Source: a virus
Virus genome (UHGV): UHGV-0290768
Direction: 5' to 3' (one strand)
DNA: 55,056 nt
Part shown: piece after piece, positions 1,451 to 46,218 of the stretch
How the letters are laid out: each line of letters begins with the position of its first letter
Numbering within the stretch: the first letter of the stretch is position 1
Notes under the pieces: generated by a model
Seen by the model: only the letters and a program-made list of their open reading frames with translations
Databases searched by the model: none
Told to the model about the DNA's origin: nothing
Program-made: the position numbers and the translations under genes

Positions 1451-1804
1451 AAAAAAACACCGGAACTAAGAATATTCCTAATCGTGTCATAATTATAAAT
1501 GAAAGAGAAATAGTTTAAAATGATCGATCATGATCGAACAATAGGCGAAACCTATCACACACCACAAATTGATCGGTAATTCAAATCAAATGAAGTGAAA
1601 GGTAAAAATAGAAACATGATTTCATTATAAATCACAATAAAATCAATGTGTTATTAAATACTAATAATTTAGTGCCAGATATCAAACGTTAGTTGAGAAG
1701 GTGTCTGAGGTTCCGAAGAAATTTATCTGCGATGATAATGCCGATAATAAACAATCTTAAACATTTATAGGTATAACATCATAAGAAAATAAATCATTTC
1801 ATCT

Positions 1805-2884: not shown

Positions 2885-3286
2885 TAAGAGCCGCTATCAC
2901 TTTAAACCACTAAATTACAAGATAAAACCGCCCTGCATTACAAAGTTATAACATGGATGTGAAAATTACAAGATTGCACTTCAATTATTGATAAACGTAT
3001 CAATAATAACATTTTGCATCCATTTTTCTTGAATCTATCTGTACGTTTTAAATCTAATGAAAGGCAATACTTTAGGGTTATATCCTTAAACATGAAAACC
3101 CAACAGGATTTATCACTATTGCATTATTAATTTTGGTAGATTATTAAACAACGACACAACATCTGACCAGTAAAAATTTACTTGAACTTACTTATCGTTT
3201 ACTCCAAATTATTCTGTGATGTACACAGCAATTAATGTCGTTACAGTTGCCCCCGGCAAGTGCCTCCGGGGGATTTTTTATGCTCC

Positions 3287-4714: not shown

Positions 4715-4782
4715 AATAAAGTTCCTCCTGGATGGTTTTCCCTGGAAAAAGAAAAGGCCCCTTGCGGGGCCATATATTGTTA

Positions 4783-10700: not shown

Positions 10701-13700
10701 TCAGCGGCACCGGCTTGTTGTTGTTGGAGAAGATCCCCGGACTGGTGTTAGTCGTCCGGTTCAGCCGGACCCCCGCTTTCCCGTCCCCGAAATCGCCAAA
10801 AGTCACACCGGCTGGATACTGAATATCCCAGGCAGTGCTGCCCTGTAGAAAATCAAAGTTCGGGATCAGGTTGTCGCCAGCGTTGCGGGTGGCCGTCAGC
10901 ACATTCGCCAGATTTGTCAGCTGCTGGCTCTGTGTGGTCAGTTTCCCTTCCGCCTCTGTCACCCGGTTATCGACCGAAGTCAGTGCCGTTGCATCGGCCT
11001 TCTTCGACACATTGCTGTTGGTCGTGTTCAGGCTGTTCTGCAGGTTCGTCAGCTGCTGGCTTTGCGAGGTGATAGCCCCTTCCGCTGTGCTGACCCGGCT
11101 CGTCAGTCCGGTAACGGCGCCGGCGGTGGCATCGATGTCCACCCGGTCGGTAACGTCAGTGACGTAAAAATCATCGAAGTAGCGGCTGCCGCTAATCAGA
11201 TAGTTGCTCAGCGTCACCGGCAGGCTGGCTGTCTCCGTCGCTTTCCAGCGACCGGAAACCAGGGTCCAGTTTGTCCCCACCGTGCCGCTGTTGTACGGAC
11301 GCTCAAAGACCGGCTGGCCGGCAGAGTTACCGATCCGCAACTTGTTGTTCCCCGCGCCATTATCCGTCGTCGCTCCGGGTTCCTTGACCCACACCCCGAT
11401 TTCATAGGTTCGCCCCTGAACAAACGGGATGTATTGCCCCGGAGACACGCTCCCCGGATCAACCTTCAGCGCCCGCGTCCCGCTGTGAGGAGCGGAAACC
11501 TCCACCACACTGGTCGCGGTTGACCGCCCGGTATAACCATCCAGCCCGCGTTCAAATGATGGATTCGCGACCAGGTTACCCGGTATCTGACCGCTGGCAT
11601 CGATATCTGCCGCAACCTGCGAGAGACTGTTCGACAGGTTCGTCAGCGAATTGCTCTGGCTCTCCAGCGTTTTGCCCTGCTGCGTCACTTTCGTGTCGAG
11701 CGTGGCCAGCGCTGTCGCATCGGCTTTCTGCGCCAGCGCTTTATCGGTATTCGCCAGATTTCCGGTCAGTTTCGTGATGGCGCTGTTTGCAGCCGTCAGG
11801 TCGTTGCCCAGCTGTGTGACGGTATTGGTCAAATCCTGCACCGCTGTCGCATCAGCCTTTTTGGCCACTGCGGCATTGGTGGTTGCCAGCCCGTTTTCCA
11901 GCTGAGTTGTCCGGTTGCCGGTCGAGGTCAGCAGATTACCCTGTTGCGTCACGGTGGTGGTCAGCGAGTCAACCGCCGCCGCCGTGGCATCCGCAGTATC
12001 CTGAACCTTTTGCGCCGCTGTCACATTTCGCATATGCCAGTCCGTAACGAACCATACGGTGCCATACGGGCTGTTCTGCGAGATCTGCAGGAACGGGCGG
12101 ATATAACCCCTGTCTACCATCGCCTGCGTGACCTTGAAGCGCCAGGTGGTTCTCTGCCAGGTCGCGGAAGGTGATTTTCCGCCCCCCGCCATGAGTGGCG
12201 CACCGGTGCTCGTATCTGGCCGAACGGCGGTGCCAACATACAGATTAAAATTCGCCGTGCCGGCGCCGCAGGCAACCAGTGCGCTGATCTCAATCACATC
12301 GTTAAGCGTGGCCGGGAACGCGGCAAAGTTAGGATGGTGATCCCGGCTGGCAATTCTGGCCGCATAACCATACGGGCAGCCAGGAGGGACCTCCTCAGCC
12401 GTCGTGGATACGACGCTAAACCCCATCTGGTCGTAAGCCGGGTCAAATGTCGGGTTGGGAATTAAATCCCCGCCTGATGCGTTTCCGGCCCGTACAGCGG
12501 ATTTCAGCGAGGTAATGTTGGCGTTAGCAGCCGTCAGCCCGGATTCCGTCTTCTCCACTCGTCCGGTTAGCGAGTTCATCGCCGTCTGATCCGCTTTGCT
12601 GGCCACGTTCGCGTCTGTCTGCGTCAGCGCATTCCGGAGCTGGGTGATGTTCTGCGAATTGCTGACCACATCGTTGCCAATCTGGCTGACATTCGAGCTG
12701 AGCACGCCGGCTGCGTTTGCCAGCGCGGAAACCCCGAGACCGGAGTACATCTCAGCAACCTTGTCTGACAGCTTCAGACCCAGGTTGATATACGCCTGGC
12801 CGGTCCACTGATTCACCAGAAACTCAACGGTGTTCCAGCCGGCTTTCAGTTCAAAACTGACGGTATTCCAGCTGGCGTTACCCCAGGCGACCTGAACCCC
12901 ATTCACAAATATGGCGCCGGTATCATCAAAAACCCTGGCGCCGGGCGCCAGTGTGATGGTGGTATCTGCGGCCACTTTCACCTGGCAGGAATACAGCGCG
13001 ATCAGATAGCTGCCGGCGGATGTAAAGTCCAGTTTGGCCGCGTCGGCCACCTCATCCACGACCGTTGGCGCCACGGCGCGAACATCGCTGAATGACGGGA
13101 CTGTCCCGGCGTTAGCCAGCTGCACCGGATAGAGTCGACGGGACCAGCGATTCGGCTGGCCATTGACCAGTTGATTCGACAGGCTGGTGATGCTGTCAGT
13201 ATTGCTGCGAATATCCTGCCCGTTTTGCTCTACCTGCTGCGTTAAGGCAGTGACCGCAGCCGCTTCGGCTTTCTTCGCCAGCGCGGCATTTGTCGTGCCC
13301 AAATCGCTCGTCAGTTTCGTGATGGACTGACCCTGGCTGGTTATCCTGTCACCCTGCTGGGTAACAACAGACTGCAGCCCGCTCAGCGCCTCATTAGTAC
13401 CAGCCAGTCCCGTTTCCGTCTGGCCAACCCGGTTAGTGAGCGATGTTAACGCGGCGCCCTGCGATGTCAGCGTGGCGCCCTGTTGCTCAACTTTCTGCGT
13501 CAGGGACGTCAGCGCGGCTGCATCGGCTTTTTTCCCGAGGCTGGTTTCCAGGCCACCGATACGGCTCGCCTGCGCGCTCTGCTCTGTCGTCAGAGAACTC
13601 AGTTCACCAGAAACAGCAGCTTTGTTATCGTTAAACTGCGTCTGCAGGGACTCTCTGGCCTTAACTTCCGCCGAGATGGCGGTAACGCGTGCGGTTTTTT

Positions 13701-16700
13701 CCTGGTACAGCAGCCCGGAGGTGACTTTCTCCAGATCGCTCCCATCATAGGAGCCACGCATCTGCGCCGCCAGCGTGCTGCGTGCCTGCGCTTCGGCAGT
13801 CAGCGCGTTACTCAGCGTACTGCGCACATCCTGCAAAGCCGCCGTACTGGCGCCGGGTGCTGGCCGGCCAACGGCGATCCAGTCGAATTCGATAAAGTTG
13901 CTGGCATCCTGCTGGTTCGTCAGGTCCAGGCGAATACGATCAATGTTCCCTGTCCACGGAATATCACGCACCGTCAGGGTTGCCACCCCATCGGCATATT
14001 CCGGCTCAGCAACAATGTATCGCTTCGTGTTATTGAAGTTTTCGCCGGCAGACACCCAGCGGATCTCACCCGCCCAGACTGGTTTGCCGGTTTTACGAAA
14101 GCGCAGCATGATGAAACGGTACGCCGCACCATCGACAGCTAGCCCGCCAGGAGAGGTAATGTACGGATCGGTGGCGCTGTCCGCCGGGCGTAACCAGCCA
14201 TCCTGTGACACACCCGGTACGCCGGCGCTGCCGGTCCAGCCCTCGGTCGTCTGATTGTTGAAATGCCAGATAACCTGCGAATCGAACTGGATATTAGCGC
14301 CGGCAGCGAGGCTGGACATTTCCCGCGCCAGATTTTCATCGGCGGTCTTCATCACCTGAGTCAGGCTCTCGATACTCGCCTCAATCCCCTGCGTTGCCGC
14401 CAGCAGTTCATCAGCGGCCTGTGACGCCTTCGCGTTAACATCGGCGATACGATCCGCGGTCTCCTGCTTCACCGCATTGGTCAGCGTGGTGTTGACCTGA
14501 GACAGCGACTGCTTCAGGCCATTTTCGGCAGTCTTTATCTGCGCATTCAATGCGGCATCGCCGTCGACCAGCGTTTTGCTGACCCTGGCAATCTCCAGGT
14601 CGATGGTGGCGTTGATTTCCGCAGCCGTATCGGTGACTGACTGTCTTACCTGGGTGATGCTGTCGGTCAGCGACTTGTTCACAGTTGCGATCTGCTTGTT
14701 CGCATCTGCGACGGCGGATTTTGCCTCCTGAACGCCTTTGTTTGCCTGAGCCAGACCAGAATCGAGAGCCTCATTGACCGAGGTGATCTCATCCGTGATG
14801 GTTTTATTCACGGCGGAGATCTTCCCGTCAACATCAGCCGTGATGCTTTTCGCCGATGCATCAATATCCTGGCTGACCTGCTTCGCCTGGTCTTCGGCTT
14901 CCTTACGCAGAGCTTCAGCGGTCTGCTCCAGTTCCTGCTGCGTATTGCGGATACCTTCCTGTGTTTCGCTAATGGTGCGCTGCGTTTCCTCCCAGGCAGC
15001 CGTATCCTTGATCGCGTCGGTCAGGTTTTCGTAGTAGTCATCAAAGTTATCGCTGGCCATCCCCTGGACCCAGCCGGTCCACGGGCTTTCATTGCCAAGA
15101 CGATCCACAAGGCGCGCCCGATACCAGAATTCTGCGCCCATACTGAGGCCCATCTGCTGATAGCTTTTCCCCGGATAGGCCACGTCTGATAACGGCATCG
15201 GCGCACTGCCGTCCTGATTTTTGCTGTACTGTAGTTCCGTGCGCAGCGTATCCCCGGAGCCGGTCGGGAACTCCCAGCTAACCTGGACCCCATGAACCAG
15301 AGAACGGGTTGCCAGCGCCAGCGGCGCCAGCGGCTCGCCGACCTTGCCGGTCAGGGTTTTCTCTTCGGAATACGCCCAGCCGCTCGAGATCTCCGCCGCA
15401 TTGATCGCACGGACGCGAACCAGGTAACGACCGGCATAAATGCCGCTGACCTCAAACGAGGTGGTCGAGCTGCGCGGTACATTAATCCAGTTCCCGTCGT
15501 TACGGCGCCACTGTGCCTCGTAGGCAATAGCGCCGCTGACCGCTGACCAGTTAACCTGCATCGTTTCGACGCTGATCCCCTGATTCACGACCGAGCGGGA
15601 TGTGATGACAATATCGTCAGGAGGTGACTGGTTGCCCGCCGGCAATACGCTAACCGGGCGCTGGTCGATAATAGCGCCGGTATCGATGCGGGGGAATTTA
15701 TCCGGGTCATGTGCCACGCCGGTGATCGTGAGGGTGGCATCGCTGTTCTCTTTTACCCCTGTAACCCGGTACTGCTGCAGGAAGAGGTCATCGGATTCAA
15801 TGGCCCAGACGCATTCCCGTTCTGGTGTCTCACTGTACGCCGTTGTGACCGTAATCTGCCGACGTCCGTTAACAGCCTGAATTGTCCGGCTCTGTGAGAT
15901 CCCGGATGGCAGGTTTAGCTGGAGGCGGTCGCCAGGTTTGGCATCCACATCACGATCCAGCGTAATCACCCGGCCATTCACCGCGCTGATTCGCCCGCCG
16001 TTTACCCGTCCGGCCAGCAACTCATCCGCCAGGGCAATGATATAACCGGGTTGAGGAATGCGACCGTCCAGCCCGACATCAATTTCGACCATGCGGTCCT
16101 TATTGTTGGTCAGTATGCCCCACAGCCCCTTACGGTGGGCTTCGCTCTGGCGCGTACAGCCAATCGCCGTCATTTCGAGCTGGTTAAAACTGTAGCGGGA
16201 AACCAGTTCCGGGATAAATGCCGGCTCCATTGCATCAGCATAAGCATTATCCGGATCAGACCAGGAAACCAGGGCGTTGGTGTACCGAACCTGGCTGCTG
16301 CTGCTCGAATAACGGGGTTTGCCGATAATATTGGCGCGCGTATAGGTAAAATCGACATCACGCGGCATATCAGCCTGCACAACAATCTGCTCACCGTTCC
16401 AGCAGGTCATGCCCCGGAAAATGGCGGCAAAGTCTCGCAGCACGGTGTAAGCATCGTTGCGTTCCTGGACATAGACGTTACAGGTATAGCGCGGCTCCAT
16501 GCCGTCACCACCGCGCCCGTCAGGAACCAGCTGATCGCAGTACTGTGCAATCTGGTACAACGTCCATTTCGAAATATTGGCGCTGCTCAGACGATTACCG
16601 AGACCAAAACGGTCAGCTATAACAATGTCGTAATAGATCCAGGCCGGGTTATCCGTCCAGGCCCATTTAAACCCGCCGGTCCAGACGCCGGTATATTCGC

Positions 16701-17487
16701 GGGTTTCCGGATTGTAGTTATCCGGCACACGAATCACGCGCCCACGCGGCTCACAGGAAATTTGCGGAATGGAGCCATTAAACTGGCTGGAGTCGAACTC
16801 GATATAAAGCAGCGCGGTGTTGGGATAACGCAGCTTCGCGTCAATCACTTCGGTATAGCTCTGCAGCGTCATCACGTCGCCAACTTTGACACTGTTTGCA
16901 TCCGGAGGGATTTTACGCAGGCGTAGCGTCCAGGTACTGCCGGCCTGGGGCAGATCAATACGATGGCTCCGCTCATAACCGGAGGTGGTTTTACCCGTGA
17001 CAGCGGTTTCCAGCACCGTCTGCCAGGCGCCGCCGTCGGTCTGCAGGTCAATCGCATACTTGACGGTATTGCCCACCACGTCGCCGTCATCTTCCTGTTT
17101 CATCAGGGACGGCCATTTCAGGCGGACACGAACGGCAGAAAGCTGGGTATTAGTAAAGGTATGGGTCCAGGCTGTCTTGCTGGAAACTTCCGTTCCCACA
17201 CTGATTTCATTTTCAGTACCGGGAATACCCTGAATATAAGTCTGAGCCTGCGTGCCGGGGCGAAATTCCCAGGACACGCCACTGAAGTTTTGCGAACCAT
17301 CAGCATTTTCAAGCGGGGTGCCATCAAGATAAATATCTTTCCCGGTTAAACCACCTGCAAATTCACCCTCACCTAATGCGAGCAGAATTTTGGCTTTCGC
17401 AACGGACTGTAAATCATCCGGCTGTTCCGTCGGTGTACGCTGCTTTGAGCCGCCACCCTTGCGCCCTTTAATTATGTTGTTTGCCAT
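4783..17487 (-). CDS. J: Giant (4234 aa) host-specificity / central tail fibre protein, lambda J family, with a ~3100-aa internal expansion
   Basis: N-terminal ~800 aa and C-terminal ~300 aa align with lambda J (for example YTEVIDAKLRYPNTALLYIEFDSSQF...RYTCNVYV, and C-terminal WSMKVETVNGKNVGAGITLG...TAKNADISG-like). The middle is made of heptad-like repeats (xLTxRVxxxEGxITxQxQxITxLQNSLNTTNxxVxKKAD) alternating with ~150-aa beta-sandwich domains. Confidence 0.9.
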   Translation of the reverse strand: MANNIIKGRKGGGSKQRTPTEQPDDLQSVAKAKILLALGEGEFAGGLTGKDIYLDGTPLENADGSQNFSGVSWEFRPGTQAQTYIQGIPGTENEISVGTEVSSKTAWTHTFTNTQLSAVRVRLKWPSLMKQEDDGDVVGNTVKYAIDLQTDGGAWQTVLETAVTGKTTSGYERSHRIDLPQAGSTWTLRLRKIPPDANSVKVGDVMTLQSYTEVIDAKLRYPNTALLYIEFDSSQFNGSIPQISCEPRGRVIRVPDNYNPETREYTGVWTGGFKWAWTDNPAWIYYDIVIADRFGLGNRLSSANISKWTLYQIAQYCDQLVPDGRGGDGMEPRYTCNVYVQERNDAYTVLRDFAAIFRGMTCWNGEQIVVQADMPRDVDFTYTRANIIGKPRYSSSSSQVRYTNALVSWSDPDNAYADAMEPAFIPELVSRYSFNQLEMTAIGCTRQSEAHRKGLWGILTNNKDRMVEIDVGLDGRIPQPGYIIALADELLAGRVNGGRISAVNGRVITLDRDVDAKPGDRLQLNLPSGISQSRTIQAVNGRRQITVTTAYSETPERECVWAIESDDLFLQQYRVTGVKENSDATLTITGVAHDPDKFPRIDTGAIIDQRPVSVLPAGNQSPPDDIVITSRSVVNQGISVETMQVNWSAVSGAIAYEAQWRRNDGNWINVPRSSTTSFEVSGIYAGRYLVRVRAINAAEISSGWAYSEEKTLTGKVGEPLAPLALATRSLVHGVQVSWEFPTGSGDTLRTELQYSKNQDGSAPMPLSDVAYPGKSYQQMGLSMGAEFWYRARLVDRLGNESPWTGWVQGMASDNFDDYYENLTDAIKDTAAWEETQRTISETQEGIRNTQQELEQTAEALRKEAEDQAKQVSQDIDASAKSITADVDGKISAVNKTITDEITSVNEALDSGLAQANKGVQEAKSAVADANKQIATVNKSLTDSITQVRQSVTDTAAEINATIDLEIARVSKTLVDGDAALNAQIKTAENGLKQSLSQVNTTLTNAVKQETADRIADVNAKASQAADELLAATQGIEASIESLTQVMKTADENLAREMSSLAAGANIQFDSQVIWHFNNQTTEGWTGSAGVPGVSQDGWLRPADSATDPYITSPGGLAVDGAAYRFIMLRFRKTGKPVWAGEIRWVSAGENFNNTKRYIVAEPEYADGVATLTVRDIPWTGNIDRIRLDLTNQQDASNFIEFDWIAVGRPAPGASTAALQDVRSTLSNALTAEAQARSTLAAQMRGSYDGSDLEKVTSGLLYQEKTARVTAISAEVKARESLQTQFNDNKAAVSGELSSLTTEQSAQASRIGGLETSLGKKADAAALTSLTQKVEQQGATLTSQGAALTSLTNRVGQTETGLAGTNEALSGLQSVVTQQGDRITSQGQSITKLTSDLGTTNAALAKKAEAAAVTALTQQVEQNGQDIRSNTDSITSLSNQLVNGQPNRWSRRLYPVQLANAGTVPSFSDVRAVAPTVVDEVADAAKLDFTSAGSYLIALYSCQVKVAADTTITLAPGARVFDDTGAIFVNGVQVAWGNASWNTVSFELKAGWNTVEFLVNQWTGQAYINLGLKLSDKVAEMYSGLGVSALANAAGVLSSNVSQIGNDVVSNSQNITQLRNALTQTDANVASKADQTAMNSLTGRVEKTESGLTAANANITSLKSAVRAGNASGGDLIPNPTFDPAYDQMGFSVVSTTAEEVPPGCPYGYAARIASRDHHPNFAAFPATLNDVIEISALVACGAGTANFNLYVGTAVRPDTSTGAPLMAGGGKSPSATWQRTTWRFKVTQAMVDRGYIRPFLQISQNSPYGTVWFVTDWHMRNVTAAQKVQDTADATAAAVDSLTTTVTQQGNLLTSTGNRTTQLENGLATTNAAVAKKADATAVQDLTNTVTQLGNDLTAANSAITKLTGNLANTDKALAQKADATALATLDTKVTQQGKTLESQSNSLTNLSNSLSQVAADIDASGQIPGNLVANPSFERGLDGYTGRSTATSVVEVSAPHSGTRALKVDPGSVSPGQYIPFVQGRTYEIGVWVKEPGATTDNGAGNNKLRIGNSAGQPVFERPYNSGTVGTNWTLVSGRWKATETASLPVTLSNYLISGSRYFDDFYVTDVTDRVDIDATAGAVTGLTSRVSTAEGAITSQSQQLTNLQNSLNTTNSNVSKKADATALTSVDNRVTEAEGKLTTQSQQLTNLANVLTATRNAGDNLIPNFDFLQGSTAWDIQYPAGVTFGDFGDGKAGVRLNRTTNTSPGIFSNNNKPVPLNGQRKYRVVVKAKGVSGAMSLLIRRQNKIGQTDSTYEDKTVTLTTDWQTITWETGLTAAGADGQNFKLYSHPTNGEIWLDSVRVFDITDETNIKATSDAVSSLTGTVTNQGNTLTSQGQSITALNNALEGVKGDVAKKADASAVSSLTNRVTQTEKDIRSQADSLTRLNTSLKQQATRGANVLPDGSFESYAVGDVLSNARAVITSEAAHSGTKSLRVTRSTEYNPNATDNNDTHIFSGMQVRDNAVYYVEAWVKLPAGSTADPTVYMVLGFSFQDSANGWSWPGLNVKVSELSVDNWTKVSGYLTNNRTALKQAMVRISIPNTPKVRLGDAFLIDDLIISDVTDAKAALDAADANAQALSSLSASVTQNGKNITSQGSAITKLQSDVTQLGKDISGKADASALTNLTTRVTATEGSLKSQGDSLTNLQNSLNTTNSNVAKKADATALQSLQNTVEQHGRDLTTQSSALTNLENNFSSLAVGGTNLIRNADTLEGWSSRHATETYLGDRVAYTRLAKGASGYIQLDEQTLDVTGRTEFVFSFYAKGAYNGQEMASYFYNPSNTTTTETSQGVKGGAGDGKAVTKLTTAWARYWVKWVIPATSGTKRLIAARLESATSADKEVWLCRPQLETGTVMTDWSPSPDDAASGITANTSAINSLTSRVTNAEGQLTAQSQSITNLQNSLNTTNNNVAQKASAQSVSDLTSRVTSAEGKITSQGQAITKLQGDLSSTTDKVNTKADQTALNALTGRVEKTEAGLTAANSNIVSLTAAVNAGNAAGDDYIPNPSFDPAYDRMGYDVVETTAAGVPADCPFRYAVRLAGRDHVPKINNIAVTPGDVYEMSALVACGTGSADFNFYIGRATTATGGIGARASGGNTKTTTAWKRATWRFTVPADTNFLRPFLQVNQSSPFGTVWYAADWHMRNVTAANSAQKTADATAKAVDSLTTTVSQQGDTLSSIGTRTTSLENSLRSTNDTVSKKADTTAVTQLQGTVTQQGNDIAAANSALTKLSSDLATTNANVNKKADASAMNTLQNQVTEQGKTLSAQGDSLTQLSNSLSQTAADIDASGKMPGNLIVNGSFERGAAGFTGWSSTATVADLQVPHSGNKALKMSAGQSNLVGQEISITQGRTYRMGVWAKQDPGTTIKDAGNTKFRVADSTGLLVGSNYGPFSSGWQLVTFDWKATKTTTASFQLTTFLSAGAMYFDDFHVLDVTDEKDIAANAGAISQMNTRVTAAEGAITTQAQQLTKLSGDLAVTNAAVSKKAEQSAVTGLTTRMTSAEGKLDSQSQQLTSLQNSLTTMNTELGKKADTSAVSSLTGRVSQVENTITSQSQSITSLTSTINTIRTQGANPWVDGTFESYSDGQVLGGNGTAVVVASQKFTGNKSLQVSRGANNNGNSDKQLGSWQSVREDAKFRFEFWAMMPADQAPSSGWTTLVGINSLNAAGQNSWQSAVTVSEAALGARDKWVKFTGIASNNGDGRTRAVVWISTRGASGSGTPGYSLYIDDLVITDVTDAKAAQDASDATASAVSGLTARVTDAEGKITAQAQQQTALATKVDNANSRVDNMAKTLSDSQSTQASLNTSLQSQIDAQAAANIKNQTTLDNTIKSVASITSTQQTHATALEALATQQTTLTSSVGDLSASVQNTAKTVADVNGTVSSLWSMKVETVNGKNVGAGITLGSNGETSDMILYADRFSLFNRNNATAVPVMVAEGNELYIDTARIKNSSLTSTKIADGSITNAKIGNEIRSNDFVDGSRGWRIAKDGSSQFNNVIVRGAVYATDGWFQGTVYANHIEGDIGSFAINIAQHRTRKVPKATWQWFELARFRRQNFDQVINIRGGLLQTDSITIDGGAKLRAGMSYAPGADGGLNPGYLSYAMLLRGTGATSGGGSMELGIELMYETGGATRLLTAQESMNVDNMSFVVPAGTGDAVLRYGCYLDRNGQMVLTILSRFDAFAARNNNVIRGSST

Positions 17488-35983: not shown

Positions 35984-36080
35984 ACTCCACCTCCGGGTTA
36001 ACGGGGTGCTTTGTGTTTGATAAGGTTCAGGACCGGCAGGAGGAAATCTTATCAATGATGATTCCAGGTACCTGAAAATG

Positions 36081-36103: not shown

Positions 36104-36174
36104 CTAGATAATTCAACGCGAGCTATGTGCCCGGGGATAGTGTATTGTTGCGGACCATTCATTAGGAAATATCA

Positions 36175-36346
36175 TATGCAACAACGCAAAAACTCAAAAA
36201 ACAATCGCAACTACCTCATCAAATGTACCTGCCCTAGCTGCACCAACCAATCAGAACATAGTTACACCCGAGTCCAGAAAGGCTCTGCGCTGATGTGCCC
36301 TCACTGTAGTAAGATTTTCACTCAAGACAAACTTCCCACCGCTTAG
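36175..36346 (+). CDS. Small zinc-ribbon protein (56 aa)
   Basis: MQQRKNSKNNRNYLIKCTCPSCTNQSEHSYTRVQKGSALMCPHCSKIF... with CxxC-X16-CxxC. AGGAAA SD. The track ORF starts earlier at 36125. Confidence 0.35.
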
Positions 36347-36540
36347 GCTTTACATCATCATAATCTCTGGTAATGCATCCACTGCTGCGCTCGTATAGAT
36401 TAGAGAAGTAAGCCCATTAGGCAATGCGGCCGATGAATACCTGTTAGACGGGTTTCGGCTTACTGGCAGAAAATTAACGTTCTGGCATCGGCAAGATAAA
36501 AGGCCTGCCGCAATGGAAGGCCTTTAGGGGGTTATGCAGT

Positions 36541-36656
36541 ATGTGTGGTGCCGGGTGCCTCCCGGTAAGTCTGCTCCAGTCAACAGACCCGCGTGTGTGC
36601 TCAAAGAAAAAATTGACTGGTCGCCCCACCGCACAGGGGGATTCACCACACACCCA
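36541..36656 (+). repeat. Structured ~115-nt repeat element, copy A
   Basis: Shares a 24-nt 5' module (gtgtggtgccgggtgcctcccggt) and a ~37-nt 3' module (tgactggtcgcccc.ccgca.agggggattcaccaca) with copy B. The termini are complementary (gtgtggtg / caccacac). Confidence 0.6.
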
Positions 36657-36900
36657 CATTAGCTACACGATATGCGCCTGGTCAATTCAATGTAACCAGT
36701 AAAATACATCTTTCGGAAACTGTATAACCTAGCGGGCAATAATTAATCACTGCATATTTAATCATTACAAAAACAACAATAAATTTTCATATCTGTTATC
36801 AAATTAAGAAAAAAATACTGTTAGGAATTTTCTCACTTAACTCGCACACTACGCCTCATGCGAATCACAATATCCATAGTCTTTCAGAGGATAAGCTCAC

Positions 36901-37329: not shown

Positions 37330-37495
37330 AGAAAGTTGGCAACCAAGGCTGTAACGAAAGGAAGGTGCACCTAATAGTCCGAGCTACCGATTTACCAGGA
37401 AAGCCTTCTTTTTTTACCGTTACGTTCGTTAACCATAGCCTGACAGACAAAAAGAGCAAGGCTTTTGTCATTACAGTCACTATGTTAAGGCATTA

Positions 37496-37610
37496 GTGTG
37501 GTGCCGGGTGCCTCCCGGTGAGCATGCCCCAGTCGGCATGGCCCGCGCTGCATTTACAGGTTTCTGTAACTGACTGGTCGCCCCTCCGCATAGGGGGATT
37601 CACCACATCA
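37496..37610 (+). repeat. Structured ~115-nt repeat element, copy B
   Basis: Same conserved 5' and 3' modules as copy A, with a divergent middle. Direct orientation, 955 bp from copy A. Confidence 0.6.
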
Positions 37611-38045
37611 ATAATTTATGATGCAAACAATCAAAGCGTCAATGTCAGAAATATATCTGGCGCTGGTTACCCCCACCGAACTAAACCACAGAAAGCAGCA
37701 AAGCTACTCAGTGGCCAATCTTCATGTTACTTGTACTTCAACTCCAACAGCTCAAAACAGCTATTGAGGTTGCAGAGCGTTTTCATTGACCGCACTTCCG
37801 GGTTAACAGGACGCCTGGAAAGGGATTGGCCTCAGGCTTAGCTGACAAGTCAGCCCAAGAGGTTTTAGGCTGAGCCTAAGATGCAGAGGCTCTGTCGTCT
37901 GGCTAGGTTTTGATGATTAAGCTGTGTGTCGAAGTGACCACTCTTAACAGATTACGATAGTTTTTGCGTACGCGTTAGCCTTTTTGTATTCTACACAAGG
38001 TGTAAGGTTGATGTGTCCAATGACTAATAATAACAGTGGTGTAAG

Positions 38046-39194
38046 ATGAGCGTAGAAATAAAACATGTAATAGTTCATGAGCTTATTAAAGAAGCCAAAA
38101 AAGATTTTGACTTCTCTAACCCATATAACTTGAGAGAAACTCCCTTAGATAACCAAAACCCAGTTGTCATAAAGTTAATTACTGAAATCTCTTCCTTATA
38201 TGGTTCAAAGGGAAATTCAGCTCATTATGGCGTATTCAAAGAAGAAACAACAGAGCAAGGGCCTATTCCATCTAAGTTTGATGAATACACTCAAAATACT
38301 GACTGCACATCAGATTTATTCGTACCACTGTCAATTGCCATCATGAAACAATTAGTAAAAAAAGCCCAAGAGGAAATATGGTCTTCCGGTGGCTTTATTG
38401 TGTTTTGTGATTACACTATAAATGACAATCAATTTTTCTTGATCGCAATGATTAAAAAGAAAAATGGTGTCACCATAAGCACGAAATTAGAACCAGAAGA
38501 AATGATTCATCTTGATTTATCAAAAATCCATCAAGCAGCCAGAATCAATTTCGACTTATTTGAAAAATTTAAGCATGCAAGTGAAAGTGAAAAAATCGAT
38601 AGCAGCTACTTAAGTTTTGTTAGTAAAGGAGTTGGTCAATCAGCCTCTGCATACTTCATCGCGGCAATAGGTTGTGATAAATCCCTTGCAGCAACCAAAG
38701 CGACTAAAAAACTCCCTTCCGAGGTTAAGAAATTCTTTACAAGCAAACCTGAATTAAAAGAACACGCAACTAAATTTAGACATGAGATAGTTTCTTACCT
38801 CGATAAGCAAGCATCAAATGATGTGTCAGCAAGGTTAAGTGATATCGAAACAATTGCATTATCACATATGACTTACCTTAATGATGAAATACGAGAGAGC
38901 TATGTTAAGGAGTTAATGGCTCATTTAAACAGCGAAGACATAAGAATTCCCACTGAATTTGTTGTTAGTAAGCGTGCACTTAAAGAGGTGAAAAATCTTA
39001 CTTACAAAGGTGATGATATTGGTTTCAGTTTTGAAAAGGCACTTCTTGGCGAGACAGCTGACTATGATGTTTGGTACGATGAAGAAAGTGGGCGGCTTTC
39101 ATTTACTAATCTACCTTCAGAAATGAAGGTAGCACTAAGCCAAGCAGTCCGAGAAAATGCAAAGTTACGGGAGTCTACAAGCACAAATGGCTAA
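38046..39194 (+). CDS. NdpA/YejK-like (NA37 family) nucleoid-associated protein homologue, gene 1 of an AT-rich two-gene cassette
   Basis: Matches to E. coli YejK recalled from memory: IVHELIK vs ALHQLIK; GGFIVFCDY vs GGFVLFCHY; SSYLSFVSKGVGQSASAYF vs [20 protein letters not shown]; C-terminal EKALLGETADYDVWYDEESGRLSF vs [20 protein letters not shown]. Much lower GC than the flanking phage genes. Confidence 0.55.
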   Translation: MSVEIKHVIVHELIKEAKKDFDFSNPYNLRETPLDNQNPVVIKLITEISSLYGSKGNSAHYGVFKEETTEQGPIPSKFDEYTQNTDCTSDLFVPLSIAIMKQLVKKAQEEIWSSGGFIVFCDYTINDNQFFLIAMIKKKNGVTISTKLEPEEMIHLDLSKIHQAARINFDLFEKFKHASESEKIDSSYLSFVSKGVGQSASAYFIAAIGCDKSLAATKATKKLPSEVKKFFTSKPELKEHATKFRHEIVSYLDKQASNDVSARLSDIETIALSHMTYLNDEIRESYVKELMAHLNSEDIRIPTEFVVSKRALKEVKNLTYKGDDIGFSFEKALLGETADYDVWYDEESGRLSFTNLPSEMKVALSQAVRENAKLRESTSTNG

Positions 39195-40407
39195 CTTTTC
39201 AACAGTTGTAGAGCTGTATCGAGCATCATCGAAACCGCGTTTCGATGGTCGTTCGTTCTCTGCAACTGTTGTTTTGGATGATGCTTTAACATGTATTATA
39301 AAATCATTATTAAATGCCAACAAAAGCAATGGCTATTTCGAAGACATCGAAATTGATGATGAATTATTTGATGAAGATAATACCGAAGACATCCAGAACC
39401 ACATAGGAAAAAAAGTTGCCTACACTTTTATTACACCTAGAAACGGTGCAGAACGTTTCTATAGTTCCCTTGAAGACTTCCTCTCTATAAACACACTAAA
39501 GAAAGGTGTTTTACCTAATAGTTATTATATTACAGACAGCGATTTTTATTCGTTAGATGATGATAAGCCGTCTGGCATTAATAAAATAGAAAAAATATGT
39601 TCCATTATTACGTTGCTATCTGAAATAGCTCATTATCATGATACAAAGTCAGAATCATCAAATTACCGTCTAGTTTTTGTAAAAAACTCAGACTCTAAAT
39701 CGACATCTGTTGTTTTAGAAACTTGCATTACAGACAAGATGCTACAAACTGATGGCATAAATGATGATGTATTAAAAACACTGCTATCTCCAGAAGACTC
39801 TGCGTCCCCCCACCACTTAGAAAAAATTGGTATTTTCCGCAATACTATTGTTGAACACACGATAGAAAACAATTTAAATTTCGAGATGTTAATTTGTAAC
39901 TGGCCTTTGTTTCTAAAATTATACAACAACAATCTGTCAACTTACATGAGTGGTTTTTCATTCCATAAGGCCAGGAAGGATGTAGCTACTGCCGAGGCTG
40001 AGTTTGCCGAAAAAATATCAAAAATAATCACTGAACTTACAGGTAAGATTTTATCTATTCCTGTTTCTCTTCTAGCATCGGTAGGAATTATTAAGCTCAA
40101 TTCCATATCGGAGATGAGCCTCGTTTTAGCAGGGGTCGTTCTAACTTCTTTTTTGTTACATATGGTATTAGTGAATCAGGAAAAACAACTCAATATAGTA
40201 ACTCATGCTAAAGATCTGGCTTTTAAATCCTTTATAAAAAACAGCACGAGTTATCCTAAAGAATTGAATGATGATATACAGGTAGCCATAAAAGAATTAA
40301 TTAAAAACCAAGCGAAATGTCAAATGACAATTCGCTTGTTTATGTGTTTAACTTGGCTACCGAGCTCTATTGCCTCTGCAATATTCCTTTCTAGATTTTT
40401 TATTTAA
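39157..40407 (+). CDS. Partner protein with C-terminal transmembrane helices, gene 2 of the cassette
   Basis: ORF overlapping gene 1. An alternative start at 39187 (ATGGCTAA) overlaps the gene-1 stop, which suggests translational coupling. Soluble Asp/Glu-rich N-terminal domain. Two TM helices at ~aa 300-345 and a final hydrophobic helix at the C-terminus. AT-rich. Confidence 0.6.
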   Translation: MQSYGSLQAQMANFSTVVELYRASSKPRFDGRSFSATVVLDDALTCIIKSLLNANKSNGYFEDIEIDDELFDEDNTEDIQNHIGKKVAYTFITPRNGAERFYSSLEDFLSINTLKKGVLPNSYYITDSDFYSLDDDKPSGINKIEKICSIITLLSEIAHYHDTKSESSNYRLVFVKNSDSKSTSVVLETCITDKMLQTDGINDDVLKTLLSPEDSASPHHLEKIGIFRNTIVEHTIENNLNFEMLICNWPLFLKLYNNNLSTYMSGFSFHKARKDVATAEAEFAEKISKIITELTGKILSIPVSLLASVGIIKLNSISEMSLVLAGVVLTSFLLHMVLVNQEKQLNIVTHAKDLAFKSFIKNSTSYPKELNDDIQVAIKELIKNQAKCQMTIRLFMCLTWLPSSIASAIFLSRFFI

Positions 40408-40409
40408 AT

Positions 40410-40757
40410 TCAATAAGTTAGAATACTGATGACTCCCTCAATAAATCCCATTGCAGACTGCAAATCCTTCCTTATGGTCCCATCAGAACACTTCCGCTTC
40501 TTCGCGATGGTTCTTAATGAGATGCCAATAACAAAATGAGCAATAATTAGCTCATATTCTTCAGGTTTATACTTACGCAATCGCGCCACACACCCATCAA
40601 TCATGATCCCTTCATCATCATCGCATTGCTGGCGTGTTTTCTTTCCATGAGGTAGCAAACCTTTAAACCCAGCTGCAATGGGTTGCCAGTCAACACCACT
40701 ATTGTCAGATGCCGCCCAAGCTCCCCAACGGTCCATTATTTCGTACATATCTCTCAT
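40410..40757 (-). CDS. Q: Late-gene antiterminator, Q-like (Phage_antitermQ family)
   Basis: MRDMYEIMDRWGAWAA...IAAGFKGL...CDDDEGIMIDGCVARL... matches short Q-like antiterminators of Qin/DLP12-type prophages. Confidence 0.75.
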   Translation of the reverse strand: MRDMYEIMDRWGAWAASDNSGVDWQPIAAGFKGLLPHGKKTRQQCDDDEGIMIDGCVARLRKYKPEEYELIIAHFVIGISLRTIAKKRKCSDGTIRKDLQSAMGFIEGVISILTY

Positions 40758-43998: not shown

Positions 43999-46218
43999 TC
44001 AAATAACTATTTTATCCTTTATACTCTCCCAACTTTCTTCATTTATATTATATTGCTCTGATTTTAAAGTGTCCGATAAGCTTGAAACCAAAGCAGTTAC
44101 CCTACCAGGCTCGTAATCTGCCCACTCCTTGACTTTATGTAAAACAGCATGAAAAACGTCCTCTTTCAAGCGGTGGCCAAACTGGATTCCTAAATTATTT
44201 GGAAATAAATTTCCGTATGTCTTTCGAACTTGTTCAGCAGAAGGTGAGAGTGAAAGAAAATTCAGGAGAAACTCTGGTCGCATTATGTACTTAGATGAAT
44301 TTTTACGTACAAGTTCTGATGTATGCTTCTGAATTCTTGTCTGGTTTGTCAACCACCAGGTTCCATATCCGAATGGACTTCCATTATTTGATTCATTATT
44401 TTTAAGTCTTAATCCATATATGCCATGAACAAGAAGTGCACTATTCTGTGCTAAAACATCATGTTTCTTTTCTTCATTTTCGAGCAATGTTTCAGCGAGT
44501 TCCTTAACTTCACTTGTCTTAGAGAAAGATGCCAACTCTTCATTTTCAATGAACTTCAAATTATACTCTGAAATTAGGTATCTCTTTAATTCCTCTCGAC
44601 CTAAATTATTACTAATCGCGTCGTAACTTACAAATTGGTTTATGAAGCCTTCCCAGGATCGAATGAGACCTGCTTCCTTAGCATAAAAATAAGCTCTTAT
44701 GAGAATCTTGGAACTGTTTCTGGCTATTTCCTTATTAATATGCGGTTCAATACTTCTAAAGTGGTTATTAAATTCATAGTTAGTATTTCTTATATGTGTA
44801 TAAACCTCCTCTAAAACAGCTGTAGCCATCCTCAACTTCACGCCACTTATGGCAGCCGACTGCAATAGATTTTTGCACTGTTGATCCTCTTTACTCAAAT
44901 ATCTCTCTGATAAAGCCTTTACTATAATATCTGAACCTAAAAATAGCGTAAACTTACTGCACATTGAGCTAAAGTAATCTACAATTCTTGGGTCAGCCTT
45001 CAAGGTGAATAGTAAAACAAACGTTTTAGACAATTGTAATAAGTATTGTCTTTGGATCTCAGTGCTATGATAAAAGACAGAATTCAGTATTTTTTCAATG
45101 TAATTCCTGTAATCAGGAATATCATTAGGTTTAATACTTGATGAGTTTAAAATATCCTCAATACAGTCACTAATCACAAGCTCCTTCTCATTTATCGAAC
45201 CGTCAGAATCAGAAATAAAGGAGGCCAACATCAATCCTTGCCTTTCGAAAACACGTTGAATAATGTTTTTTGTTAAGTCAGCTATGATCTGGCAGCGCTT
45301 ATGCCCTAATGAAAACATAGTGCTACACTGATCTTGTATCTCTCTAAGAAAATTTAATGCCAATAATTCATCTGCTGAATTTTCGAGTTTGATAGACTCT
45401 CTTGTTTGAAACGGTAAACAATACTTTTTGTCATTCTTATACCATCTAATCTCTCTATTTGCTACACTTTTTGATTTCAGTGCATCAAGTCGAGATGACA
45501 GATTTCCATTCAAAAAATAACTGGACCACGGAAACTTCTCAATTATACCATCTCTTATTTCATCCTTAGTCATAAATATACCCTTATCAGGATCGGTATC
45601 ACGTAGAGCCCATAATATTAAAGTATCCGTGATTGAATGGATAAGCTTAATATTACCCTTCCTGTTTGATATTTCATGTTGGAGGAAAACAAAAATAGAT
45701 GGATCTTTTACGAAATCAGACACCCCCAAACTAGTCGAGGCACCTACTCTAGATAAATACTCCGTTTTACTTGCCAAGTGCTGATAATATGAGGATTTTG
45801 TCGCTTGATTATCGTTAATATGGAAATAAAGGTACTTAGCATCTCTTATCCTAACAAGAACACCCAACTCTTCAGATAAAATATCTTCCTCTTTATCTAA
45901 ATGAGGAATAGTCTTAGATGTAACGTAGTAAATCACTCTAGGGTTCCTACTAAACTCCCTCAATCTCTTAACAGTTTGTTTTATTTTTGCTTTGTAATCT
46001 GCTTGAATTGTCATTTGATAGAATATATTGGTTGATTCAGTTTGATACATTTCCTTGTCTAGGGCACCATCAGCCCCTCCATCATGAACCCCGCCCATAG
46101 GGATAAAACTCCTCCCATCTAATACTGCCATAAATGCGCAAGCAAAATTTTCAAATTCGAAACCAGAGACTTTACTAAGAGCAACTTCAAAAAGGTCATT
46201 GCTTACATAATTATCCAT
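43999..46218 (-). CDS. Large AT-rich protein (739 aa) with an N-terminal Mrr-like (PD-(D/E)xK restriction endonuclease-type) motif; candidate abortive-infection or defence gene
   Basis: N-terminal FEFENFACAFMAVLDG...PMGGVHDGGADGAL...IFYQMT resembles the Mrr_cat signature. No Walker A motif. GC content far below that of the phage backbone. Confidence 0.65.
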   Translation of the reverse strand: MDNYVSNDLFEVALSKVSGFEFENFACAFMAVLDGRSFIPMGGVHDGGADGALDKEMYQTESTNIFYQMTIQADYKAKIKQTVKRLREFSRNPRVIYYVTSKTIPHLDKEEDILSEELGVLVRIRDAKYLYFHINDNQATKSSYYQHLASKTEYLSRVGASTSLGVSDFVKDPSIFVFLQHEISNRKGNIKLIHSITDTLILWALRDTDPDKGIFMTKDEIRDGIIEKFPWSSYFLNGNLSSRLDALKSKSVANREIRWYKNDKKYCLPFQTRESIKLENSADELLALNFLREIQDQCSTMFSLGHKRCQIIADLTKNIIQRVFERQGLMLASFISDSDGSINEKELVISDCIEDILNSSSIKPNDIPDYRNYIEKILNSVFYHSTEIQRQYLLQLSKTFVLLFTLKADPRIVDYFSSMCSKFTLFLGSDIIVKALSERYLSKEDQQCKNLLQSAAISGVKLRMATAVLEEVYTHIRNTNYEFNNHFRSIEPHINKEIARNSSKILIRAYFYAKEAGLIRSWEGFINQFVSYDAISNNLGREELKRYLISEYNLKFIENEELASFSKTSEVKELAETLLENEEKKHDVLAQNSALLVHGIYGLRLKNNESNNGSPFGYGTWWLTNQTRIQKHTSELVRKNSSKYIMRPEFLLNFLSLSPSAEQVRKTYGNLFPNNLGIQFGHRLKEDVFHAVLHKVKEWADYEPGRVTALVSSLSDTLKSEQYNINEESWESIKDKIVI

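What the first reader, a model, noticed from the sequence alone, without database searches (positions are those of the whole stretch)
38046..40407. AT-rich two-gene cassette (NdpA/YejK-like protein plus membrane-anchored partner) between Q and the late genes, convergent with Q
The cassette has much lower GC than the prophage backbone and is transcribed opposite to everything around it. It ends 3 bp from the Q stop codon, so Q is separated from the lysis/late operon by ~4.4 kb instead of abutting PR'. Gene 1 shows several motif matches to the nucleoid-associated protein NdpA (YejK, NA37 family). Gene 2 is probably translationally coupled (ATGGCTAA overlap) and ends in two or three TM helices. 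A DNA-binding sensor paired with a membrane effector is the usual architecture of abortive-infection systems, and the Q-to-S interval is a known moron and defence hotspot in lambdoid prophages. I do not recall a described defence system with an NA37-family component.
Basis: partly seen in the sequence, partly recalled or inferred. Interest (0 to 1): 0.8.

Follow-up and report, generated by a model that had tools for sequence, protein, structure and literature searches.

The report
Prophage NAP-plus-membrane-effector anti-phage cassette
This Klebsiella prophage carries a two-gene cassette, a YejK-like DNA-binding protein plus a membrane-anchored partner, that is a distant relative of anti-phage systems validated in 2025-2026 (DS-1, and probably PANGU type II), so it is a real defence candidate but not a new kind of system.

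Summary
Two coupled + strand genes (38046-39194; 39187-40407, 8-nt ATGGCTAA overlap) at about 35% GC sit between the late region and a convergent Q antiterminator, 2 bp from its stop codon.

- **Gene 1:** a full-length NA37/YejK protein (Pfam E 1.7e-52), but not the housekeeping YejK.
- **Gene 2:** an acidic N-terminal domain followed by three hydrophobic helices.
- **Link to a validated system:** both proteins hit the NCBIfam models for the E. coli DS-1 anti-phage system (E 1e-30 and 1e-25, far below the equivalog cut-offs). They align directly with DS-1A and DS-1B at about 27-29% identity.
- **Architecture:** it matches type II PANGU as published (YejK-like sensor plus acidic-domain/TM effector, abortive infection).
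- **Co-conservation:** the pair is adjacent in 10 of 10 loci examined, from Klebsiella to Sinorhizobium.
- **Cassette exchange:** 95-97% identical Klebsiella phage backbones carry alleles only 26-48% identical in protein. E. coli relatives carry other cargo in the same slot, including DUF262+HEPN.

Verdict: new member of a known kind, with defence activity still untested for this subfamily.

The parts
38046..39194 (+). Gene 1: YejK-like nucleoid-associated protein (382 aa), the proposed sensor. It is a PagA/DS-1A-like component.
   Evidence: PF04245 NA37, E 1.7e-52, profile 1-325/325. NCBIfam YejK 148 bits (cut-off 341). NF053868 DS1_1_antiphage 106 bits (cut-off 330). phrog_3767, E 7e-78. PDB 9be2_A YejK, E 4e-14. 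BLASTP to DS-1A: 26.5% identity over 260 aa, E 8e-12. 100% identical to a K. pneumoniae 'nucleoid-associated protein'.
39187..40407 (+). Gene 2: 406-aa partner, the proposed membrane effector (Pag2B/DS-1B-like). Its start overlaps the gene 1 stop by 8 nt.
   Evidence: NF053869 DS1_2_antiphage, E 1.6e-25, 90 bits (cut-off 315). phrog_5023, E 2.3e-72. BLASTP to DS-1B: 29% identity over 238 aa, E 2e-12. Family profile against DS-1B: 78 bits. No Pfam family above cut-off. 1137 clusters (50% identity) of relatives at E<=1e-3.
39187..40035 (+). Gene 2 N-terminal soluble acidic domain (aa 1-283), the proposed docking surface for the NAP.
   Evidence: aa 1-290 carry net charge -14 and pI 4.95. The N-terminal 70% is acidic in all 11 family members compared. 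AF2 model: alpha/beta domain followed by long helices, pLDDT mostly 80-94.
40036..40179 (+). Gene 2 hydrophobic helical hairpin (aa 284-331), preceded by the conserved K-x-L-x-I-P motif.
   Evidence: Kyte-Doolittle 19-residue windows score up to 2.34. K287 and P292 are invariant in 38 sequences. The motif is also present in DS-1B (KALTIPGALIAAGG).
40336..40392 (+). Gene 2 C-terminal hydrophobic helix (aa 384-402).
   Evidence: Kyte-Doolittle 1.65. W390 is nearly invariant and P392 invariant. Helix 391-405 in the model.
37996..40422 (.). The exchangeable slot: the segment replaced between otherwise 95-97% identical Klebsiella phage backbones.
   Evidence: blastn of the window against L019 (Klebsiella phage Kp4865-4) and L004 (K. 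pneumoniae prophage). Flanks align at 76-94% up to 37985/37995 on the left and at 95-97% from 40423/40431 on the right. Nothing aligns in between.
37906..37995 (.). Conserved border element immediately upstream of the cargo. It probably holds the Q-dependent late promoter/qut region (minus strand) and possibly the cargo promoter (+ strand, TTGCGT-17-TATTCT).
   Evidence: 88-97% identical in E. coli, Klebsiella and Salmonella loci whatever the cargo. It lies about 40 bp from a Q remnant where there is no cargo (L025). On the minus strand it is followed by a GC hairpin plus T-run in 4 of 6 loci. The promoter assignment is inference.
40410..40757 (-). Q antiterminator, convergent with the cassette. 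It is context rather than part of the system, but always linked to it in enterobacterial prophages.
   Evidence: PF06530, E 1.6e-45. A PF06530 gene is convergent and within -11 to +23 nt of the partner gene's end in 7 enterobacterial prophage contexts: the window, L001, L004, L011, L014, L019, L023. For L019 the Q identity rests on 95% DNA identity to the window's Q.

Best explanation
The cassette is a prophage-borne two-gene anti-phage system of the YejK-like NAP plus membrane-effector kind. It belongs to the same superfamily as E. coli DS-1 and has the architecture of type II PANGU.

**Proposed mechanism.**
1. In the lysogen, both genes are expressed from the + strand.
2. The gene 1 protein sits on the host nucleoid.
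3. The gene 2 protein sits in the inner membrane, with its acidic N-terminal domain in the cytoplasm.
4. When an infecting phage degrades or grossly perturbs host DNA, the NAP loses its DNA substrate and is released.
5. The released NAP binds the acidic, DNA-mimicking N-terminal domain of the partner.
6. This switches on the helical/TM part, which damages the membrane. The infected cell stops growing before the phage completes its cycle (abortive infection).

**Shown here.** Gene structure, domain identity, homology of both proteins to DS-1A/B, strict co-conservation and co-divergence of the pair, acidic N-domain plus C-terminal hydrophobic helices, and cassette exchange in a prophage hotspot.

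**Taken from the literature on relatives.** Both genes are needed. Neither is toxic alone. The phenotype is of the Abi type. The NAP leaves the nucleoid on T4 infection. The NAP binds the effector's acidic domain with nanomolar affinity.

**Inferred.** That this subfamily defends at all, that membrane damage is the killing step, and which phages trigger it.
For: **Domain identity and homology**
- Gene 1 is full-length NA37 but scores far below the housekeeping YejK cut-off (148 against 341 bits). It is therefore an accessory paralogue.
- Both genes hit the NCBIfam DS-1 anti-phage models, E 1.6e-30 and 1.6e-25.
- They align directly to DS-1A and DS-1B recovered from the paper's tables (E 8e-12 and 2e-12; profile 78 bits over positions 64-383 of 404).
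- DS-1 has the same gene order and sizes (391 + 404 aa, 2-nt gap). It lowered plating efficiency of Bas1 by 7.6 logs, Bas26 by 2.7 logs and T3 by 1.7 logs.

**Match to type II PANGU** (bioRxiv 10.64898/2026.04.06.716658)
- It is a NAP plus a TM effector with an acidic N-terminal 'DMK' domain and a C-terminal TM region.
- Both genes are required, the phenotype is Abi-like, and Pag2A relocates off the nucleoid on T4 infection.
- Gene 2 fits this description: aa 1-290 have net charge -14 and pI 4.95, followed by three hydrophobic helices.

**Co-conservation**
- In 10 of 10 loci an NA37 gene lies directly upstream on the same strand, with gaps of -41 to +19 nt.
- Identities to the window of the NAP and the partner fall together, from 72%/62% down to 23%/25%.
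- The loci include non-prophage sites in Methylomonas and Pseudomonas and a Sinorhizobium phage.

**Hotspot behaviour**
- Near-identical Klebsiella backbones carry alleles whose proteins are only 26-48% identical.
- E. coli relatives carry DUF262+HEPN, a STAS-containing three-gene set, or other cargo behind the same border element.
Against: - No experiment exists for this subfamily. It is only about 27% identical to DS-1 and scores at roughly a third of NCBI's equivalog cut-offs.
- I could not obtain the Pag2A/Pag2B sequences, so homology to PANGU type II is argued from the published description only.
- PADLOC v2 (2023) does not recognise either protein.
- The cassette's promoter is not mapped. 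The consensus scan found no strong site upstream of gene 1.
Confidence: 0.75

Rival explanations
1. The cassette is a lysogenic-conversion or prophage-maintenance module, not a defence system. The accessory NAP would bind and organise or silence DNA, either the AT-rich prophage DNA or host loci. The membrane partner would tether or titrate it, tuning prophage gene expression or induction.
For: - YejK-family proteins are general DNA-binding nucleoid proteins (PF04245).
- In enterobacterial prophages the cassette is always glued to the 3' end of Q with no terminator between them. Its transcripts should therefore run antisense into Q, which could affect the lysis-lysogeny switch.
- No defence test has been done on this subfamily.
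Against: - The same pair occurs outside prophages, in the Methylomonas and Pseudomonas chromosomes, where there is no Q to regulate.
- Homologous pairs have been shown to block phages.
- Allelic replacement at 26-48% protein identity inside 95-97% identical backbones is the pattern expected of genes under diversifying conflict, not of a housekeeping regulator.
Confidence: 0.1
2. The cassette is a toxin-antitoxin-like addiction module. The membrane protein is a constitutively toxic pore former that the NAP neutralises, and the pair stabilises the prophage rather than sensing infection.
For: - Two tightly coupled small-operon genes with overlapping stop and start.
- A membrane-active candidate with long helical hairpins.
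- TA pairs sit next to the cassette in some loci: HicAB in Klebsiella, hok in E. coli, PIN in Methylomonas.
Against: - For PANGU systems the authors report that none of the single-gene constructs was toxic and that both genes are needed for defence. They conclude it is not a classical TA.
- The order sensor-then-effector and the large size of both proteins are atypical for type II TA.
- The acidic N-domain of the partner suggests activation by binding, not neutralisation.
Confidence: 0.07
3. The cassette is a superinfection-exclusion device. It would act at the membrane on incoming DNA: the NAP captures entering phage DNA at the membrane-anchored partner, and the cell does not die.
For: A membrane-anchored protein paired with a DNA-binding protein. 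Prophage morons near the lysis genes often encode exclusion functions (general knowledge of lambdoid phages).
Against: - The published relatives behave as Abi: growth arrests at high MOI and there is no full immunity at low MOI.
- The NAP is nucleoid-bound, not membrane-bound, before infection.
- Escape mutations map to the T4 EndoII nuclease rather than to injection functions (section title).
Confidence: 0.05

Closest known systems
DS-1 (DefensePredictor system D390; E. coli ECOR; WP_000355468.1 + WP_000150292.1; NCBIfam NF053868/NF053869)
   Same: - Two genes in the same order: a YejK/NA37 protein, then a roughly 400-aa partner.
- Nearly abutting genes.
- Both proteins are homologous to the window's (26.5% and 29% identity, E 8e-12 and 2e-12; profile hit over 80% of the partner).
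- The K-x-L-x-I-P motif plus hydrophobic helix is conserved, and the N-terminal part is acidic.
   Different: - The window's proteins score about a third of the equivalog cut-offs (106/330 and 90/315 bits).
- DS-1A has an extra N-terminal Zn-ribbon-like segment (aa 1-41) that gene 1 lacks.
- The near-invariant AHYHD and SGFSFHKARKE motifs of this subfamily are only partly kept in DS-1B.
- DS-1 was tested; this subfamily was not.
Type II PANGU (Pag2A + Pag2B, E. coli UPEC; bioRxiv 10.64898/2026.04.06.716658)
   Same: - A bicistronic operon.
- A YejK-like NAP first.
- An effector with an acidic N-terminal domain and a C-terminal TM region.
- Distributed across phyla.
   Different: - Sequence-level relationship is untested, because the sequences are not in the held text.
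- The paper found its systems by linkage to defence islands. This one sits in a lambdoid prophage Q-to-late-promoter slot.
Type I PANGU (Pag1A + GRel toxSAS Pag1B)
   Same: The same sensing module (YejK-like NAP). The effector carries an acidic DNA-mimic docking domain.
   Different: That effector is a soluble alarmone synthetase that makes pppGpp. Gene 2 has no RelA/SpoT-like domain (no Pfam hit) and is membrane-anchored.
Housekeeping YejK (NdpA) of Enterobacteriaceae
   Same: The same Pfam family over its full length. Detectable similarity to the solved YejK structure 9be2.
   Different: - 148 bits against the 341-bit equivalog cut-off.
- Encoded on an AT-rich mobile cassette.
- Always paired with the membrane partner.
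- About 45 aa longer.

Membership tests
NA37 / YejK family (Pfam PF04245) | The whole protein scores above Pfam's gathering threshold over the full model. | tested here: met
   179.3 bits against 24.6; profile 1-325/325; residues 9-361.
Housekeeping YejK (NCBIfam NF001557 equivalog) | Score at or above the 341-bit equivalog cut-off. | tested here: not met
   148.2 bits. All cassette NAPs tested score 125-185 bits.
DS-1 anti-phage system (DefensePredictor) | Component A is an equivalog of DS-1A (NF053868, cut-off 330 bits). | tested here: not met
   106.3 bits, E 1.6e-30. It is homologous but not an equivalog.
DS-1 anti-phage system (DefensePredictor) | Component B is an equivalog of DS-1B (NF053869, cut-off 315 bits). 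| tested here: not met
   90 bits, E 1.6e-25, profile 31-322/337.
DS-1 anti-phage system (DefensePredictor) | Both components are homologous to DS-1A/B, in the same order and tightly linked (superfamily level). | tested here: met
   BLASTP E 8e-12 and 2e-12. hmmsearch of the family profile against DS-1B gives 78 bits over positions 64-383.
DS-1 anti-phage system (DefensePredictor) | Confers phage resistance when expressed. | not testable with these tools
   Needs plaque assays. DS-1 itself gave 7.6 logs against Bas1.
PANGU type II | A YejK-like NAP encoded in a two-gene operon (genes less than 40 bp apart). | tested here: met
   8-nt overlap. NA37 hit.
PANGU type II | The effector has a C-terminal transmembrane region. 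| tested here: met
   Hydrophobic helices at aa 284-304, 309-331 and 384-402, conserved in 38 homologues.
PANGU type II | The effector's N-terminal domain is acidic and mimics DNA (the 'DMK' domain that binds the NAP). | tested here: inconclusive
   Acidity is met: net -14, pI 4.95, and acidic in all 11 relatives. DNA-like shape and NAP binding were not tested.
PANGU type II | Sequence homology to Pag2A/Pag2B or a hit to the authors' HMMs. | not testable with these tools
   No supplementary sequences are held for the preprint.
PANGU type II | Both genes are required, neither is toxic alone, the phenotype is Abi, and the NAP leaves the nucleoid on infection. | not testable with these tools
   These are experimental features, reported for PANGU-Ecu.
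PANGU type II | Genetic linkage to known defence genes. | tested here: met
   - The same slot carries DUF262+HEPN in E. coli RX24.
- Klebsiella relatives carry RM, an RT gene or CBASS 3-6 kb away.
- HicAB lies next to the cassette.
Systems catalogued in PADLOC-DB v2.0.0 (2023) | A hit to any PADLOC model. | tested here: not met
   No family at E<=1 for either protein. That library predates DS-1 and PANGU.

The most novel reading that the evidence does not exclude
In enterobacterial prophages the cassette is always welded tail-to-tail onto Q, with stop codons from 11 nt overlapping to 23 nt apart and no terminator between. It is inserted exactly between Q and what looks like the Q-dependent late promoter. 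The most novel reading not excluded is that this geometry is functional.
- In the lysogen, read-through cassette transcripts would act as an anti-Q antisense RNA that stabilises lysogeny.
- After induction, strong early transcription through Q would silence the cassette by convergent transcription.
- The prophage would thereby switch off its own abortive-infection system before it starts replicating.

That would be a built-in self/non-self timing switch for a prophage-borne Abi system.
Probability: 0.15. Interest if true: 0.55.

Novelty: new member of a known kind. Interest (0 to 1): 0.3.

Why it matters
**Annotation.** This is a widespread pair that is still unannotated. The exact gene 2 protein occurs on more than 400 Klebsiella contigs, always as 'hypothetical protein'. 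A Salmonella NAP relative occurs on about 900 contigs. The evidence places the pair in a recently validated class of immunity that senses damage to the host chromosome through a nucleoid protein.

**Practical use.**
- It suggests a function for a common prophage gene pair in K. pneumoniae, Salmonella and E. coli, which is relevant to phage-therapy host range.
- It defines an exact exchange slot (37996-40422) with a conserved border. That border can be used to mine further cargo in this family of Q/DUF968 lambdoid prophages.
- It supplies divergent natural alleles for testing how NAP-effector specificity evolves.

It does not open a new category.

Tried and rejected
- **PADLOC v2:** no hit for either protein. 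This is uninformative, because the library predates the relevant papers.
- **Megablast against 5,426 complete E. coli genomes:** only the 50-85 bp border element matched, not the cassette.
- **blastn against phages:** one weak 300-bp match.
- **Word-indexed homologue search with the family profile:** it did not reach DS-1B. I recovered the DS-1 sequences from the paper's supplementary tables instead.
- **Fold search of the gene 2 model:**
  - Foldseek against PDB and BFVD gave nothing below E 0.2.
  - The afdb50 library was unavailable.
- **Catalytic site in gene 2:** I considered the near-invariant H149/H151/D152 and H260/K261 as a possible catalytic site. I rejected this because these residues are not kept in DS-1B.
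- **Promoter scan:** no site above background upstream of gene 1 (11 found against 13.2 expected). The TTGCGT-17-TATTCT candidate was found by eye in the conserved element and is weak.
- **tRNA scan:** no tRNA genes in the window, including the Q-to-holin interval.
- **PANGU supplementary sequences:** not held.
Full report
**1. What is in the sequence**

The window is a lambdoid prophage lying in reverse orientation: tail, head, terminase, lysis, Q, replication, then an integrase-side end. It is from Klebsiella pneumoniae.
- Gene 1 is 100% identical to an NCBI K. pneumoniae protein.
- A K. pneumoniae contig (GCA_900493755.1) has the same gene order.

At 38046-40407 two + strand ORFs run against the surrounding minus-strand phage genes.
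- GC is 0.33-0.39 there, against 0.50-0.55 on either side.
- The second gene most likely starts at 39187. The 38-sequence family alignment begins at that methionine, and most homologues are about 400-437 aa.
- That start overlaps the gene 1 stop by 8 nt (ATGGCTAA).
- The gene 2 stop codon is 2 bp from the stop codon of a convergent Q antiterminator (40410-40757, PF06530, E 1.6e-45).
- The holin starts at 36055, so Q is 4.35 kb from the lysis genes.

The spacer is 2 bp rather than 3, and two small + strand genes lie in 36-38 kb.

**2. What the proteins are**

*Gene 1.*
- It matches Pfam NA37 end to end (E 1.7e-52).
- It matches the solved YejK structure 9be2 (E 4e-14).
- It reaches only 148 of the 341 bits that NCBI requires for the housekeeping YejK. 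It is an accessory paralogue.

*Gene 2.*
- It has no Pfam family.
- aa 1-290 are acidic (net charge -14, pI 4.95).
- Hydrophobic helices lie at aa 284-304, 309-331 and 384-402.
- An AlphaFold2 model built on 38 homologues is confident (pLDDT 88). It shows an alpha/beta N-terminal domain followed by very long helices that include the hydrophobic segments.
- No solved or viral predicted structure resembles it significantly.

**3. The link to known systems**

NCBIfam holds two models named for an anti-phage system, and both are hit.
- NF053868, 'nucleoid-associated anti-phage protein' (DS1_1), is hit by gene 1 at E 1.6e-30.
- NF053869, 'anti-phage protein' (DS1_2), is hit by gene 2 at E 1.6e-25.
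- Each scores about a third of the equivalog cut-off.

DS-1 is system D390 of DefensePredictor (PMC13092281; bioRxiv January 2025, Science 2026).
- It consists of WP_000355468.1 (391 aa, YejK domain) followed 2 nt later by WP_000150292.1 (404 aa).
- It lowered plating efficiency of Bas1 by 7.6 logs, Bas26 by 2.7 logs, and Bas3 and T3 by 1.7 logs each.

I recovered both sequences from the supplementary tables and compared them directly.
- Gene 1 against DS-1A: 26.5% identity over 260 aa, E 8e-12.
- Gene 2 against DS-1B: 29% identity over 238 aa, E 2e-12.
- The gene 2 family profile covers DS-1B from profile position 64 to 383 of 404 (78 bits).

So both components are homologous, in the same order and of the same size, but this is a different subfamily.

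A second paper (bioRxiv 10.64898/2026.04.06.716658, April 2026) defines PANGU systems.
- Type II is a YejK-like NAP (Pag2A) plus a TM effector (Pag2B). Pag2B has an acidic, DNA-mimicking N-terminal domain that binds the NAP at 19 nM.
- Both genes are needed and neither is toxic alone.
- Infection at high MOI arrests growth.
- The NAP leaves the nucleoid when T4 infects.

The window's cassette fits that description feature by feature at the level I could test. The Pag2 sequences are not held, so sequence-level membership stays open.

**4. Co-conservation**

The gene 2 family is large: 1137 clusters (50% identity) at E<=1e-3 and 225 at E<=1e-30.

I examined ten independent loci.
- Prophages: the window, E. 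coli (two backbones), K. pneumoniae, Salmonella and Erwinia.
- Sequenced phages: Klebsiella phage Kp4865-4 and Sinorhizobium phage phi2LM21.
- Non-prophage chromosomal sites: Methylomonas and Pseudomonas.

In every one an NA37 gene lies directly upstream on the same strand, with gaps of -41 to +19 nt.
- Identities to the window of the NAP and of the partner fall together: 72/62, 55/44, 52/43, 48/40, 35/33, 28/26 and 23/25%. This is as expected for a co-evolving pair.
- Every cassette is 10-17 GC points below its flanks.
- All partners tested hit the DS1_2 model at 62-106 bits, and all NAPs tested hit DS1_1 at 53-115 bits. None reaches equivalog level.

**5. The slot**

Against Klebsiella phage Kp4865-4 and another K. 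pneumoniae prophage:
- The right flank aligns at 95-97% from 40423/40431.
- The left flank aligns up to 37985/37995.
- Nothing aligns in between.
- The proteins encoded there are 26-28% (Kp4865-4) and 41-48% (the other prophage) identical to the window's.

Different alleles of the same kind of system have therefore been swapped into an identical backbone.

The left border is a roughly 90-bp element (37906-37995) that is 88-97% identical in E. coli, Klebsiella and Salmonella. Behind it, E. coli relatives carry other cargo:
- DUF262 plus a HEPN-like nuclease, with a cytosine methylase (RX24);
- a three-gene set with a STAS-like protein (p10A);
- a single 237-aa protein (SCU-308);
- nothing, in which case the element lies about 40 bp from a Q remnant (MLI104K1).

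Read on the minus strand, the element is followed in four of six loci by a GC hairpin and a T-run. This is what a Q-dependent late promoter with its short terminated leader would look like.

I infer that cargo is inserted between Q and its late promoter. The promoter assignment is not shown.

**6. Mechanism and rivals**

The best-supported model is the published one for relatives: the NAP sits on the nucleoid, a phage damages host DNA, the freed NAP docks on the effector's acidic domain, and the membrane effector is switched on, giving abortive infection.

For this cassette only the anatomy and homology are shown. Defence itself, the trigger and the killing step are inferred. The PANGU authors also state that activation of the TM effector is unresolved.

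Three rivals each have some support but are disfavoured:
- **A regulatory or maintenance NAP.** Disfavoured by the non-prophage occurrences of the pair and by the allele-swapping pattern.
- **A TA-like addiction module.** Disfavoured by the published single-gene non-toxicity.
- **Superinfection exclusion.** Disfavoured by the published Abi behaviour.

**7. Verdict**

- The functional interpretation is supported by homology and context.
- The novelty premise is out of date.
- This is a new, untested subfamily member of a known kind of defence system, sitting in a well-defined prophage hotspot.
- What remains interesting is modest: the exact exchange slot and conserved border, the invariable tail-to-tail junction with Q, and the fact that a very common Klebsiella and Salmonella prophage gene pair is still annotated as hypothetical.

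Noticed in passing
window 36491-36670 (-) and 37443-37635 (-): Two copies of the prophage-associated sRNA family STnc100 (Rfam RF02076; 87.8 and 79.3 bits, gathering score 47) lie between the cassette and the holin. Terminator-like hairpins lie downstream of each on the same strand, at 36105-36085 and 37328-37311. This looks like a duplicated leader/sRNA module of the late region. A 2026 preprint relates STnc100 to the PasD sRNAs of Stx phages.
   Followed up: partly
window 43999-46218 (-): A second AT-rich island (GC about 0.34) encodes a 739-aa protein. It has no Pfam, PHROG or significant NCBIfam family, and only a weak PADLOC hit to the N-terminus of an 'Aga REase-TIR' model (E 1.3e-4). 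In sister Klebsiella prophages the equivalent position (between DinI and the replication genes) holds a BsuBI/PstI-type RM system, a reverse-transcriptase gene or CBASS genes. It is therefore probably another defence slot with an undescribed occupant.
   Followed up: partly
window 37906-37995; also L009, L010, L024, L025, L001, L004, L023: A roughly 90-bp element is conserved at 88-97% across E. coli, Klebsiella and Salmonella prophages of the Q(PF06530)/DUF968 type. It marks the left edge of a cargo slot that holds unrelated gene sets. On the minus strand it is followed by an intrinsic terminator in several loci, so it is probably the Q-dependent late promoter/qut region. It could serve as a search handle for new cargo.
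   Followed up: partly
L014-L016 (E. coli), locus coordinates 1389-7881: In one E. coli prophage family the NAP/partner pair sits tail-to-tail with a PF06530 Q-like gene. That gene is followed, further along the phage's direction of transcription, by hok, DUF968, RusA and a second antiterminator of a different or the same family (PF03589 or PF06530). The cassette seems to travel together with its adjacent Q gene.
   Followed up: no
window 4783-17487 (-): A single 4234-aa ORF lies in the tail region. It is unusually large even for a tail fibre or host-specificity protein.
   Followed up: no
window 36125-36346 (+): A 73-aa Cys-rich ORF lies on the + strand between the holin and the cassette. It is annotated as YnfU-like (PF23499) on the matching K. 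pneumoniae contig, where a 39-aa KPN01023-family gene follows it.
   Followed up: no
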